A stretch of DNA of 64,000 nt from a virus, in IMG/VR virus record IMGVR_UViG_3300034418_008158, positions 10,245 to 74,244 of that record; one strand, 5' to 3'. Under the pieces are notes generated by a model that saw nothing but the letters and a program-made list of their open reading frames with translations, was not told the DNA's origin and did no database searches. The translations under genes were made by a program, and so were the position numbers. The stretch's first letter is position 1. Each line of letters starts with the position of its first letter. Positions 21,070 to 36,309 of the stretch are shown here, in pieces.

Positions 21070-21088
21070 AATTAGTGGGGGTTTTGAA
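21070..21088 (-). promoter_or_regulatory. phage promoter-like motif copy 1 (TTCAAAACCCCCACTAATT)
   Basis: Exact repeat, intergenic, about 25 nt upstream of a minus-strand start. Confidence 0.75.
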
Positions 21089-21106
21089 GAGAGAGATAGT
21101 AACTAA

Positions 21107-27254: not shown

Positions 27255-27273
27255 AATTAGTGGGGGTTTTGAA
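27255..27273 (-). promoter_or_regulatory. phage promoter-like motif copy 2
   Basis: aattagtgggggttttgaa exact copy. Confidence 0.75.
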
Positions 27274-27309
27274 GAGAAATTCTTCACCTGAAATAAAGAA
27301 AATAGCATC

Positions 27310-27625: not shown

Positions 27626-27633
27626 CTTAATTG

Positions 27634-28137
27634 TGGAGGTGAAGGGATTTGAACCCTTGTCCAGACATAGCTGCAAAATACAGATTATACAAGCTTTTGT
27701 AGCTGTTCATGTACATTTAACTGGTAGCAATTACAATCTCAAAGAGATAGTCACTAGCACTACTGAGTTTCTTCATTATTTGATTCCTTTATAAACTCTA
27801 AGATAGGAATAGGACTAACCGAAGTTAATCTCCACCATTTACTTTTGAAAAAAGTAACAAAACAAATTAAGAGAGTGTGACACGCCAAACAGTCACATTT
27901 ATGAGGTTGATTTAGCCTAATCCTCCTCTCTAAAAAACTACGCTGCTACCAAAGAATTAACTTTAGGAGAAACATAGATTGCAGTCAGCATATTATGCTC
28001 GTAAGCATTCTTCACCTCTGCGGTATTAATTGATTTGCCAATTAACGGTTCAGTGTATTTTATATAAGTTAGGATAACACCATCCTTCTGCTTGTCTATA
28101 AGTTACACTCTACCCTGTCGATGCCAAGTTCACCCCC
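27634..28137 (-). ncRNA. ssrA: tmRNA (504 nt), tag GKSINTAEVKNAYEHNMLTAIYVSPKVNSLVAA
   Basis: 5' GGGGGUGAACUUGGCAUCGAC; 3' AAGGGUUCAAAUCCCUUCACCUCCA; acceptor stem with G3-U wobble and discriminator A; tag frame 28039-27938 ending AA-stop. Confidence 0.93.
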
Positions 28138-29161: not shown

Positions 29162-29235
29162 TGACCCTGCCAGGACTCGAACCTGGAACCTGCTCATCAG
29201 AAGTGAGCTGCTCTATCCAGTTGAGCTACAAAGCC
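29162..29235 (-). tRNA. tRNA-Arg(UCU), CCA not encoded
   Basis: GGCTTTGTAGCTCAACTGGATAGAGC, anticodon arm GCTCA-CTTCTGA-TGAGC, T arm CCAGG-TTCGAGT-CCTGG. Confidence 0.93.
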
Positions 29236-30572: not shown

Positions 30573-30591
30573 AATTAGTGGGGGTTTTGAA
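30573..30591 (-). promoter_or_regulatory. phage promoter-like motif copy 3
   Basis: Exact copy, preceded on the minus strand by a terminator-like hairpin at about 30606-30636. Confidence 0.75.
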
Positions 30592-30641
30592 GTTGGGTAA
30601 TAGATCAAAAAGGGCACAGCCATAAGCCATACCCTAATTGT

Positions 30642-32777: not shown

Positions 32778-33149
32778 TTAATGAGAAATTTTTAAGTACT
32801 TACAATAAGGATTATTGGTATTTTTCGACTTGATTAGTACAAAGTATGTGCCTTTCTTCGATACTCTCACAGGCTTGCTGTCATATGTCTCTGAAGTAGG
32901 GCTACCAATCCATACAGGGTAATCATTACCTGTTTTTGGACTGTTGCATATTATGTACAAAGAACCACCATTTGTGGCAAATACATCATAAGATGTGCCA
33001 TCAATCATAATGGTTTCACTTTGATCAATACCAGTTGATACATCAAACCCACCACCTGAAGAGGTAGAAGCTTCAAACTGTACGTTCTGACTATGCAATG
33101 AAGAAGAAATACATATGAATAAAGATAGAATAGGGATTAATTTTTTCAT
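32778..33149 (-). CDS. secreted beta-rich protein
   Basis: Signal peptide MKKLIPILSLFICISSSLHS-Q; internal repeat GSLYIICNSPKTGNDY / GTYFVLIKSKNTNNPY. Confidence 0.65.
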   Translation of the reverse strand: MKKLIPILSLFICISSSLHSQNVQFEASTSSGGGFDVSTGIDQSETIMIDGTSYDVFATNGGSLYIICNSPKTGNDYPVWIGSPTSETYDSKPVRVSKKGTYFVLIKSKNTNNPYCKYLKISH

Positions 33150-33189
33150 GGTTATTAAGTTTTACTAAAAGGTTATTAAATAATATGGT

Positions 33190-34430
33190 AAGATAAAAAG
33201 AAAGACACAAGCCATCATCAGTTAAGCATCTTACGCCTAACCTCAAGCTGTATCTATCTCTTTGGGCCTTAGACCACTTCCAAATTAATGGCTGTTAAAT
33301 ATCTTAATGTGCCATTGAACTACACATTTATCCTGTGCTAGTCTGAGGTCGTTAACCCTCAGTTACTCCCCTGGCAAGGGTGTTTACTGGATTATCATAA
33401 TACAAATTGTTGTGTCACACTCAAGTTATGTGGTAATTAATCACAAAGAGCTTGTTAATATGGTATGAGCCACTGGGTTAAAAATAATGATAGTTTTATA
33501 GCTCTCAGACTAAGGGGCTAATACGACCCAAGATATTGCTATCTAGTTATTTTTATTAAACCTTGTGTTCTCTCACTGCCTTTAGGGAGTTTGTTGGGTT
33601 TAATAAATAAAATGGACTGAGTGCTTTGTCCATTTTGTAAGCGTTAATATCAGCTTTCGCTTCATACACACACTCCCATTACTGGAAGTAGCTTACATAG
33701 TCAGATATAAAGGTTCCCACCTTACTACATTAGCTTTTATAAGATACTTGCTTTCCTACAGTCTCCCCTGGACAGGGATAAACCAACATTCCCATGCTAG
33801 TAAACCAGTAGTAATCCCGTTCTCTTCTCTCTCATAGCTTGAGGCTACTTGAGGTCATCATATTGCAGATGAATAAGACCATTTTCAGGCTAATGTGTTG
33901 ACACGTTTTTTCAGTTTCTTTTAGTTGTCTTGCATGACAATTAACAAAAAATTGGTGCAAGGTGAATAAAGAATGTCCATTGTGAAGAGTGTAGTGTCAA
34001 CTTTATACCATGCTATCCGTTTGAGATAGTTTAAGTATGACACCCTTCTGCGTTCCCCCTGTCAAAGGGTACAATAAGACCATCGCTGGTCTATAACTGT
34101 TAACTATTCAAATAAGCACGATTTTCATCAGAGCTTAACGGAATATAACTGTACTTAGCTTCATTGGCGACAACCAACTACTACATAGTACTATTTAATC
34201 TTCCCTGTTCCTCTTTCGAGGTCAACTCTCCCTTGGACAAAGGAGAATACATCATACTTAGAGCTAACCAGTTGGCCTTGCTCATACCATACAATGTGTG
34301 ATTAAATACCTTTCCATCCACAACTAGTCTAAAGACTAATTGCACAAATCACTTATCTTTATGTGATTCATCTTATACCTATCACTAGGTTTATGGTTAA
34401 GGACATGAAGGCTGCCCTAGTACAAGAGTA
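33190..34430 (-). ncRNA. putative large (about 1.25 kb) highly structured ncRNA
   Basis: No ORF of 60 aa or more on either strand; at least 4 GNRA-capped hairpins on the minus strand; long-range 8-12 bp helices; promoter motif immediately upstream. Confidence 0.75.
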
Positions 34431-34435
34431 CTCAA

Positions 34436-34454
34436 AATTAGTGGGGGTTTTGAA
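34436..34454 (-). promoter_or_regulatory. phage promoter-like motif copy 4 (upstream of the large ncRNA)
   Basis: Exact copy; terminator hairpin at 34470-34508 just upstream. Confidence 0.75.
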
Positions 34455-34521
34455 GGTAGGTCAGATAAATAAAAAAGAGTAGCCTAATCCTAAGATTAAA
34501 CTACTCTCAACTATCACATCA

Positions 34522-35998: not shown

Positions 35999-36017
35999 AA
36001 TTAGTGGGGGTTTTGCA
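35999..36017 (-). promoter_or_regulatory. phage promoter-like motif copy 5
   Basis: aattagtgggggttttgca. Confidence 0.72.
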
Positions 36018-36309
36018 GTCAGGTGTAAGGCGTAATAAAAAGGCTATAATAATGATGATCCTGAAAAAAGAGAAAATATTTGAGGTTTGTATTTGGGGGA
36101 ATGGGTATAAGGCCTCACTTACTTGACTGAGTATCAAGGAGTTATGCTTCCCAAAAGGGATAATTTGTGAGAGATTGTCCCTAAAATTTCACCCTCTCTC
36201 CCCCAATTAAGAGGTTTGATAACATAATACTTACACTGTTTCCCTAATACCTAGAGACTAATTAATAAGGGCTAAGTCAAGTCTTGCCCTCTAAGGAATT
36301 AGGTTAAAG

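What the first reader, a model, noticed from the sequence alone, without database searches (positions are those of the whole stretch)
33305..34245. Four-copy CCCU-loop-AGGG hairpin module inside the large RNA, each loop with a downstream complement
Seen on the minus strand: UCUCCU-UUGUCCA-AGGGAGA (about 34228-34246), CCCU-UUGAC-AGGGGG (34055-34069), CCCU-GUCC-AGGGGAG (33763-33777), CCCU-UGCC-AGGGGAG (33366-33380). Matching complements lie downstream of each: AAUGGACA (about 33974-33981), UGUCA (about 33935 or 33899), AAUGGACAA (about 33626-33634), AAUGGCA (about 33310-33316). The loop change GUCC to UGCC is mirrored by GGAC to GGCA. Inference: the RNA is built from repeated domains closed by kissing-loop/pseudoknot contacts, or it presents repeated protein-binding sites.
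Basis: partly seen in the sequence, partly recalled or inferred. Interest (0 to 1): 0.7.

Follow-up and report, generated by a model that had tools for sequence, protein, structure and literature searches.

The report
Hairpin loops on a GOLLD-like phage RNA
The four look-alike hairpins are real and lie on a distant relative of GOLLD, a giant phage RNA known to build RNA-only cages through loop-to-loop contacts, but the "downstream complements" proposed for their loops are mostly what chance gives.

Summary
All four hairpins and all the complementary strings are in the sequence at the stated coordinates. The hairpin family is beyond chance: 3 of the 5 CCCU-N-AGGG palindromes in 64 kb fall within 700 nt. 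The complements are not: P is 0.06-0.40 per loop.

The host RNA is not a new class. Bases 34048-33614 (minus strand) align end to end with the Rfam GOLLD 3' domain (51.7 bits, E 4e-12, below the 150-bit cut-off). The phage is a freshwater crAss-like phage.

- H1 and H2 lie in the 5' domain, with H2 directly before P13.
- H3 is the second hairpin of the P21 junction.
- H4 lies in a 420-nt 3' extension.

A 93%-identical environmental variant carries five compensatory double substitutions in predicted 5'-domain stems, one of them in H2. None of 20,000 permutations reached five.

The complement proposed for H1 and H3 (33634-33626) is the 5' strand of the conserved P27 hairpin. No repeated domains exist.

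The hairpins are most likely exposed contact loops of a GOLLD-type assembly. The H2 loop (GACA) complements the H1 and H3 loops (UGUC), echoing the known L10-L12' kissing loop. This is inference only. No distant homologue was found.

The parts
34436..34455 (-). Repeated 20-nt promoter-like motif (CTTCAAAACCCCCACTAATT) just upstream of the RNA
   Evidence: Four exact copies and one 1-mismatch copy in the window, all on the minus strand; none in shuffles. This is the only part of the stretch that related phages share.
34475..34508 (-). Intrinsic terminator of the upstream gene
   Evidence: 15-pair stem followed by a T-run.
34049..34430 (-). 5' domain of the RNA (about 380 nt), strongly structured
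   Evidence: MFE -118 kcal/mol, z = -5.18, 0 of 100 shuffles as good. Five compensatory double substitutions in a 93% variant.
34227..34246 (-). H1: UCUCCU-UUGUCCA-AGGGAGA, predicted as a 10-bp stem with a GUCC loop
   Evidence: Unchanged in the 93% variant.
34210..34221 (-). CCUC-GAAA-GAGG hairpin directly after H1
   Evidence: C34220-G34211 becomes U-A in the variant.
34164..34177 (-). UUGG-UUGUCG-CCAA hairpin: a fifth UUGUC-type loop
   Evidence: U34176-A34165 becomes G-C in the variant.
34113..34137 (-). Hairpin with a GAAA loop (inner stem 34130-34119)
   Evidence: A34128-U34121 becomes G-C. Two further changes are G.U-compatible.
34078..34091 (-). GACC-AGCGAU-GGUC hairpin
   Evidence: C34089-G34080 becomes U-A in the variant.
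34055..34069 (-). H2: the last hairpin before P13. Register: C34069-G34056, C34068-G34057, C34067-G34058, U34066.G34059, U34065-A34060, loop UGAC
   Evidence: C34068-G34057 becomes U-A in the variant. This register is also the MFE of the reference sequence alone.
33614..34048 (-). GOLLD-like 3' domain (P13-P27)
   Evidence: RF02032, model positions 1-416 of 416, 51.7 bits, E 4.2e-12; E 3.7e-14 in the genome search. The gathering score is 150, so the match is below the cut-off.
33974..33981 (-). AAUGGACA just 3' of P13, at the start of the J13/15 linker. It is complementary to the H1 and H3 loops.
   Evidence: Unchanged in the variant.
33889..33896 (-). 5' strand of the long-range helix P17 (ACAUUAGC). 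It pairs with 33734-33727 (GCUAAUGU).
   Evidence: Aligned to the [[[ ]]] helix of RF02032; 8 perfect pairs.
33835..33847 (-). P20-like hairpin UAGC-CUCAA-GCUA
   Evidence: Aligned with high posterior probability. Loop CUCAA; I read the same loop letters at the aligned place of env-38, but my residue count there did not close.
33782..33801 (-). First hairpin of the P21 junction (ACUAGCAU-GGGA-AUGUUGGU)
   Evidence: in both MFE and centroid.
33763..33777 (-). H3: the second hairpin of the P21 three-way junction (P21b position). The junction is closed by CUAC 33811-33808 / GUAG 33759-33756.
   Evidence: The Rfam alignment has low posterior probability here.
33609..33636 (-). P27: AAAAUGGAC-(10-nt loop with CUCAG)-GUCCAUUUU.
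   Evidence: Aligned to the last hairpin of RF02032. 9 bp, z = -3.73.
34280..34310 (-). 5' arm of a long-range helix
   Evidence: Pairs with 33470-33432 as 12 perfect bp plus 13 of 14 bp (I4 and I5). Two neighbouring perfect helices total 21 bp; 0 of 500 shuffles reach this (maximum 18).
33432..33470 (-). 3' arm of the long-range helix, inside the 3' extension
   Evidence: In variant X4, two changes keep pairing as G.U and one breaks it.
33366..33380 (-). H4: CCCU-UGCC-AGGGGAG, outside the GOLLD-like core
   Evidence: Only weakly predicted by folding. No variant data.
33310..33316 (-). Its GCA lies in a predicted local stem (33328-33306).
   Evidence: MFE only.
33195..33263 (-). Long terminal hairpin followed by a U-rich run: possible 3' end of the extended RNA
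   Evidence: in both MFE and centroid. Not called by the terminator scan.

Best explanation
The ORF-free stretch encodes a divergent GOLLD-family RNA of a freshwater crAss-like phage. It has a structured 5' domain of about 380 nt and a 435-nt 3' domain homologous to GOLLD P13-P27. It also has an unusual 3' extension of about 420 nt that is clamped to the 5' domain by a 26-bp long-range helix.

The four hairpins are short G-C-clamped stems that present 4-6-nt pyrimidine-rich loops (U-GUCC-A twice, U-UGAC-A, U-UGCC-A) at the periphery of this fold.
- H1 lies in the 5' domain and is followed by a GAAA hairpin.
- H2 is the last hairpin before P13.
- H3 is in the P21b position.
- H4 is in the extension.

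Most likely they are exposed contact loops that make short Watson-Crick kissing contacts, within one chain or between chains, in a GOLLD-type homo-oligomer. The best candidate pair is the H2 loop (GACA) with the H1 loop (UGUC). By position this would correspond to the L10-L12' kissing loop of solved GOLLD cages. H3 sits where env-38 GOLLD uses L21b for a contact between half-shells.

Shown here: the GOLLD homology, the reality of the stems (H2 and its neighbours), and the positions. Inferred: that the loops pair, with what they pair, and that the RNA multimerises.
For: - **GOLLD homology.** Full-length alignment to RF02032 at E 4e-12 and 3.7e-14. It includes P13/P14 with a UCAAA loop, an 8-bp perfect P17, the GAAA...CU.AU junction, a CUCAA loop in the P20-like hairpin, and P27 with a CUCAG loop. 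Positive control: the Ccr34 GOLLD scores 165 bits with the same tool.
- **Setting.** Phage with a crAss-type major capsid protein, PF23898, E 3e-151. A tRNA and a tmRNA lie 4-5.5 kb away.
- **Selection on pairing.** A contig about 93% identical from another study carries 25 substitutions in 428 nt. Five MFE pairs are changed on both sides and all five stay canonical, including C34068-G34057 to U-A in H2. In 20,000 permutations the maximum was 3. That contig also has three 1-nt indels, which argues against coding.
- **Hairpin enrichment**.
- **H3 position.** H3 is the second hairpin of the P21 junction.
- **Family mechanism.** GOLLD cages are built from kissing loops. These include L10-L12' and L21-L21'' (PMC12990946), bridges B4, B8 and B9 with 1-5 bp (PMC12286853, supplement), and 2-bp contacts between tetraloops.
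- **Loop complementarity.** The H2 loop is complementary to the H1 and H3 loops. The global MFE even pairs H2 with H3 over 13 nt (I13, 51).
Against: - No covariation touches any loop. H1, the H2 loop and the 33981 site are simply unchanged in the variant, which is expected about one time in five at 7% divergence (my estimate).
- A 4-bp loop-loop match has roughly a 5-10% chance (my estimate).
- Neither P21 sub-hairpin has the palindromic GC/CG dinucleotide used by env-38 L21a and L21b. The loops here are GGGA and GUCC.
- The 5' domain cannot be aligned to any solved GOLLD, so the P10/P12 equivalence rests on position only.
- The Rfam score is far below the gathering cut-off.
- No homologue below about 93% identity was found.
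- Multimerisation was not tested.
Confidence: 0.5

Rival explanations
1. Each hairpin loop pairs within the molecule with its own downstream single-stranded complement (AAU-GGACA, AAU-UGUCA, AAU-GGACA, AAU-GGCA). These pseudoknots would close four repeated domains.
For: The strings exist. Summed complement length has P = 0.014 against shuffles. All four sites begin with AAU. The 33981-33974 site lies in a linker (J13/15) that takes part in a kissing contact in GOLLD (PMC12286853).
Against: - Per-loop P values are 0.057, 0.40, 0.15 and 0.32, and H1 and H3 are not independent.
- A shared 3-nt prefix arises in 10.5% of shuffles.
- 33634-33628 is paired in the conserved 9-bp P27.
- The GCA of 33316-33310 lies in a predicted local stem.
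- There is no domain repetition.
- Loop-to-site spacings are irregular (59-605 nt).
Confidence: 0.1
2. The hairpins are repeated binding sites for a phage or host protein that recognises a CCCU/AGGG-clamped small loop with a G-rich 3' flank.
For: Three copies share the same stem sequence and a GGGGAG or GGGGGA tail, not just a shape. One copy (H4) lies outside the GOLLD-like core. Ribosomes were reported to bind GOLLD in pull-downs (cited in PMC12286853).
Against: In the 93% variant the H2 stem sequence changes by a compensatory C-G to U-A. Shape, rather than the CCCU/AGGG sequence, is what is kept. No candidate RNA-binding protein was identified beside the locus. Solved GOLLD assemblies need no protein.
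Confidence: 0.15
3. The hairpins are ordinary stable stem-loops that help folding or fill space and have no specific partner. Their likeness comes from small local duplications or convergence on G-C clamps in an AT-rich RNA.
For: No loop covariation. The complements are at chance level. At 33-36% G+C, short G-C clamps are the obvious way to stabilise small hairpins. H3 and H4 share about 25 nt including flanks, which is compatible with a small duplication.
Against: Two loops are identical (U-GUCC-A). Three loops carry UGUC and one carries the complementary GACA. In the family's solved structures almost every conserved peripheral loop is engaged in a contact (PMC12286853).
Confidence: 0.25

Closest known systems
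GOLLD RNA (Rfam RF02032). Solved as the env-38 14-mer cage (PDB 9MEE, PMC12286853) and the S. agalactiae 12-mer (9L0R, reviewed in PMC12990946).
   Same: - The 3' domain architecture P13-P27 aligns end to end.
- A structured, non-alignable 5' domain of about 400 nt.
- Phage-borne, with a tRNA and a tmRNA nearby.
- The GOLLD-equivalent part is about 820 nt.
- Small peripheral loops at the places where GOLLD makes kissing contacts: the last 5'-domain hairpin before P13, and the P21 sub-hairpins.
- A GAAA hairpin in the 5' domain.
   Different: - The score is 51.7 bits against a cut-off of 150. A canonical member, phage Ccr34, scores 165.
- The P21 loops lack the palindromic GC/CG.
- P27 is lengthened to 9 bp.
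- There is an extra 3' extension of about 420 nt, tied back to the 5' domain by a 26-bp helix.
- The host is a crAss-like phage. No paper in the searched library holds both 'GOLLD' and 'crAssphage'.
ROOL RNA (Rfam RF03087; octameric cage)
   Same: A large phage or prophage RNA that forms cages through kissing loops and A-minor contacts. A general analogy for how exposed loops are used.
   Different: No Rfam match here, even at E up to 10. The fold is different.
Kissing-loop contacts of small loops (GOLLD B4, B8, B9)
   Same: Short Watson-Crick contacts (1-5 bp) between small hairpin loops of different chains.
   Different: Here the pairing is only a sequence possibility (GACA/UGUC, 4 bp). There is no structural or covariation evidence.

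Membership tests
GOLLD (RF02032) | Score at or above Rfam's curated gathering cut-off (150 bits) | tested here: not met
   51.7 bits. The control, phage Ccr34, scores 165.3 bits.
GOLLD (RF02032) | Statistically significant, full-length alignment to the 3'-domain covariance model | tested here: met
   Model positions 1-416 of 416, E 4.2e-12 and 3.7e-14. No other family scored below E = 1.
GOLLD (RF02032) | Conserved 3'-domain elements: P13/P14 with an A-rich L14; long-range P17 enclosing P18-P21; the GAAA...CU.AU junction; P20 with a C-N-CAA loop; the P21 junction; P27 with a CUCAG loop | tested here: met
   Alignment, in which about 17 pairs are flagged non-canonical. Sub-folds reproduce the P21 junction and P27.
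GOLLD (RF02032) | Variable but structured 5' domain of about 400 nt | tested here: met
   382 nt, z = -5.18. Five compensatory pairs.
GOLLD (RF02032) | Phage or prophage location, often beside tRNAs | tested here: met
   crAss-like phage. tRNA at 29162-29235 and tmRNA at 27631-28137.
GOLLD (RF02032) | L20 to J13/15 kissing complementarity (bridge B7) | tested here: inconclusive
   L20 is CUCAA at 33843-33839. GA dinucleotides lie in the A-rich linker at 33918-17 and 33912-11. A 2-bp match cannot be distinguished from chance.
GOLLD (RF02032) | Self-complementary GC/CG dinucleotide in L21a and L21b (bridges B8 and B9 of env-38) | tested here: not met
   The loops here are GGGA and GUCC. This feature is not universal: the S. 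agalactiae GOLLD lacks P21b (PMC12990946).
GOLLD (RF02032) | Homo-oligomeric RNA-only cage | not testable with these tools
   Needs native gels, mass photometry or cryo-EM.

The most novel reading that the evidence does not exclude
This is the founding member of an extended GOLLD subclass of about 1.24 kb. A 3' extension is clamped to the 5' domain by a 26-bp helix. A set of hetero-complementary U-turn loops (UGUC three times, GACA once, plus a GC-containing UGCC loop) replaces the palindromic L21 loops. This would give a cage with different contacts and possibly a different subunit number from the known 10-, 12- and 14-mers.
Probability: 0.2. Interest if true: 0.65.

Novelty: new variant of a known kind. 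Interest (0 to 1): 0.4.

Why it matters
GOLLD and ROOL are the only natural RNAs known to build large protein-free cages, and their function is unknown. Known members differ in subunit number according to small differences in peripheral hairpins (PMC12990946).

A far-diverged member from a different phage lineage would be useful for three reasons. It shows which contacts are essential and which are interchangeable. It extends the family to crAss-like phages of Bacteroidota. It also warns that 'new giant phage RNAs' flagged by eye may be sub-threshold GOLLD relatives.

The hairpin finding itself mainly supplies concrete loops to mutate.

Tried and rejected
**Homologue searches that found nothing usable**
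- blastn against GenBank phages: no match.
- 44 crAss-like relatives found through the capsid protein: no GOLLD match at E <= 0.01. The only DNA similarity is to the promoter and terminator motif.
- One further relative, G045: no match.
- Pattern scans of viral contigs, metagenome contigs and genome contigs gave only chance hits. L102 is an HNH-like coding stretch. L103 and L104-L132 have no GOLLD match and no nhmmer or blastn similarity.
- Searches used the gathering threshold. A sub-threshold relative would have been missed there, so the sequence check was added.

**Neighbour-gene route**
- The upstream 134-aa protein has only a near-identical hit.
- The downstream 123-aa protein has homologues at 50-90% identity (alignment A1).
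- In the relatives that could be fetched (L134, L136), the DNA upstream of that gene is packed with small ORFs and has no 1.2-kb gap.
The contigs carrying P0002-P0010, including a 97-kb one, could therefore not be read.

**Other items**
- RNA-library contigs: two metatranscriptome runs hold 151-nt contigs inside 33979-34410. No silent stretch was laid as a control, so transcription is not shown. Parts without cover say nothing.
- duplexfold of the whole 5' part against the 3' extension was uninformative, as was counting helices with G.U allowed. Both were replaced by the Watson-Crick-only two-helix test.
- The supplementary GOLLD alignment of PMC12286853 holds no row like this RNA in the stored part.
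- Exact numbering of env-38 from the PDF text was off by one in places, so the L20 and L12 correspondences are positional only.
- Earlier notes of this scan on the same genome called the RNA a candidate new class. The Rfam match argues against that.

Full report
**1. The observation**

The hairpin family is more than chance. The palindrome CCCT-N3-8-AGGG occurs five times in the 64-kb window, against 2.2 expected from shuffles. Three of the five lie within 701 nt of the 1.37-kb ORF-free stretch, where about 0.05 would be expected. The repeat finder groups H2, H3 and H4 as one 15-nt family. H1 is a looser relative.

Folding shows H1 as a 10-bp stem with a GUCC loop, the same U-GUCC-A loop as H3.

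**2. What the RNA is**

The window comes from a 74-kb IMG/VR virus record. It has a crAss-type major capsid protein (PF23898, E 3e-151), a phage tmRNA and a tRNA. The DNA occurs in freshwater and sediment metagenomes from 13 studies.

The stretch 33150-34520 has no ORF longer than 54 aa. It lies between the terminator of the upstream gene (34508-34475) and the next gene. It is preceded by one of five copies of a 20-nt promoter-like motif (34455-34436).

A permissive Rfam scan gives one convincing match. GOLLD (RF02032) aligns at 34048-33614 on the minus strand, model positions 1-416 of 416, 51.7 bits, E 4.2e-12. The genome search gives E 3.7e-14. The score is well under Rfam's 150-bit cut-off. 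A canonical member, Caulobacter phage Ccr34, scores 165 bits with the same tool. The RNA is therefore a distant relative, not a routine member.

The alignment recovers these landmarks of the family:
- P13/P14 with a UCAAA loop.
- A perfect 8-bp long-range P17 (33896-33889 with 33734-33727).
- The GAAA...CU.AU junction.
- A P20-like hairpin with a CUCAA loop; I read the same loop letters at the aligned place of the solved env-38 RNA, although my residue count there did not close.
- The P21 junction.
- A final hairpin, P27, with a CUCAG loop.

The 382 nt upstream form a strongly structured 5' domain (z = -5.18), as GOLLD requires.

**3. Where the hairpins sit**

- H1 (34246-34227) is in the 5' domain and is followed at once by a CCUC-GAAA-GAGG hairpin.
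- H2 (34069-34055) is the last hairpin of the 5' domain, 6-7 nt before P13.
- H3 (33777-33763) is the second of two hairpins inside the P21 three-way junction. That junction is closed by CUAC 33811-33808 / GUAG 33759-33756, and its first hairpin is 33801-33782 with a GGGA loop. H3 is therefore in the P21b position, although the Rfam posterior probability is low there.
- H4 (33380-33366) lies outside the GOLLD-like core, in a 3' extension.

**4. Are the stems real?**

A sediment-metagenome contig from another study covers 33973-34400 at about 93% identity. Of its 25 substitutions, ten form five double changes at positions that pair with each other in the minimum-free-energy fold of the reference alone. 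All five pairs stay canonical:
- C34220-G34211 to U-A.
- U34176-A34165 to G-C.
- A34128-U34121 to G-C.
- C34089-G34080 to U-A.
- C34068-G34057 to U-A, in H2.

Three further single changes keep pairing through G.U. In 20,000 permutations of the substitutions, the maximum number of such pairs was three. The variant also has three 1-nt indels, which a coding region would not tolerate.

So the 5' domain, including H2, is an RNA under selection for base pairing. H2's register is C34069-G34056 / C34068-G34057 / C34067-G34058 / U.G / U-A, with a UGAC loop. H1 is unchanged in the variant. No variant data reach H3 or H4.

**5. The proposed complements**

Keeping the hairpins fixed and shuffling the rest, the longest downstream complements (8, 6, 6 and 5 nt) have P = 0.057, 0.40, 0.15 and 0.32. 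The sum reaches P = 0.014, but H1 and H3 share the same loop and the same best site. A 3-nt prefix common to all four sites turns up in 10.5% of shuffles.

Two of the sites are also not free. In AAUGGACAA (33634-33626), seven of nine bases lie in the 5' strand of P27. P27 here is a 9-bp hairpin (AAAAUGGAC/GUCCAUUUU, z = -3.7) and aligns to the last conserved GOLLD hairpin. The GCA of AAUGGCA (33316-33310) lies in a predicted local stem.

Only AAUGGACA at 33981-33974 is plausibly available. It sits at the start of the J13/15 linker and is unchanged in the variant. The 'mirrored' GUCC>UGCC / GGAC>GGCA change compares unrelated places in one molecule, so it is not evolutionary covariation. There is no domain repetition.

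**6. A better-motivated pairing**

The loops are complementary to each other. H2 carries GACA. H1, H3 and the fifth hairpin carry UGUC. The global fold even zips H2 to H3 over 13 nt (I13, 51), although the compensatory change in H2 favours the local hairpin.

In solved GOLLD cages, neighbouring chains in the cap are joined by a kissing loop between L10 and L12' (S. agalactiae, PMC12990946). In env-38, bridge B4 pairs residues 410-414 with residues 253-257 of the next chain. Residues 410-414 lie in a small loop just before the 3' domain starts at 421, and residues 253-257 lie 157 nt upstream. Here the H2 loop lies just before P13, the H1 loop lies 175 nt upstream, and GAAA hairpins lie between them.

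H3's position is that of L21b, which in env-38 makes a 2-bp contact between tetraloops across the two half-shells. Its stem receives the L14 A-minor contact.

These correspondences are positional inferences. A 4-bp loop-loop match has perhaps a 5-10% chance (my estimate), and no loop covariation is available.

**7. The extension**

Bases 34310-34280 and 33470-33432 can form a helix of 12 perfect bp plus 13 of 14 bp, enclosing 809 nt. The combined length of two neighbouring perfect helices is 21 bp. None of 500 shuffles reached this, and the maximum was 18. In a 97% variant, two changes in the 3' arm keep pairing as G.U and one breaks it; its partner strand was not covered for that strain.

The extension itself is moderately structured (z = -2.5) and ends in a long hairpin at 33263-33195. 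Canonical GOLLD ends at P27, and no such clamp is described for it. P27 followed by UUUUAUUUAUU could also act as a weak terminator. Whether one 1.24-kb RNA, an 820-nt RNA, or both are made remains open.

**8. Distribution**

The closest phages (capsid protein 70-89% identical, eight of them at least 90% complete) have no GOLLD match. They share only the promoter and terminator motif. Where the downstream gene's homologue is present, the DNA before it is filled with small ORFs. The RNA is therefore an accessory cassette of this lineage.

**9. Verdict**

It is wrong in its particulars, namely repeated domains and these specific partners.

The RNA is a new, extended variant of a known kind (GOLLD), not a new class. 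I found no paper linking GOLLD to crAss-like phages.

Noticed in passing
window 34280-34310 and 33432-33470: A 26-bp long-range helix encloses the GOLLD-like core and ties a 420-nt 3' extension to the 5' domain. I found no such clamp described for GOLLD in the papers read.
   Followed up: partly
window 34164-34177: A fifth small hairpin (UUGG-UUGUCG-CCAA). Its loop shares UUGUC with H1, and its stem shows a compensatory U-A to G-C change in an environmental variant.
   Followed up: partly
window 21070-21089, 27255-27274, 30573-30592, 34436-34455, 35999-36018 (minus strand): A 20-nt motif, CTTCAAAACCCCCACTAATT, present in four exact copies and one near-exact copy, all in one orientation before early genes. 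It is conserved in related crAss-like phages, where it is the only part of the stretch they share. It is probably the phage's early promoter.
   Followed up: partly
window 27631-28137 and 29162-29235 (minus strand): A phage-encoded tmRNA, unusually long at 507 nt (Rfam 67.3 bits), and a tRNA, 4-5.5 kb downstream of the GOLLD-like RNA.
   Followed up: no
window 32778-33149 (minus strand): The gene just downstream of the RNA encodes a 123-aa protein that appears to have a signal peptide (hydrophobic N-terminus, by eye). It has an invariant CNSPK-GNDY-VW core and NPY near the C-terminus. Homologues at 50-90% identity occur in other uncultured phages. It was not scanned against Pfam here.
   Followed up: partly
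window 33872-33882 and 34073-34083: An exact 11-nt repeat, AUGGUCUUAUU. One copy is the conserved GOLLD J17/18 junction. The other is the 3' strand of the 34091-34078 hairpin, and that copy is not sequence-conserved in the 93% variant. The repeat is probably chance.
   Followed up: partly
window 33979-34410: Two freshwater or aquatic metatranscriptome runs hold 151-nt contigs identical or nearly identical to the 5' half of the RNA. None extends beyond 34410 toward the promoter motif. This is only a weak hint of transcription and of the 5' end.
   Followed up: no
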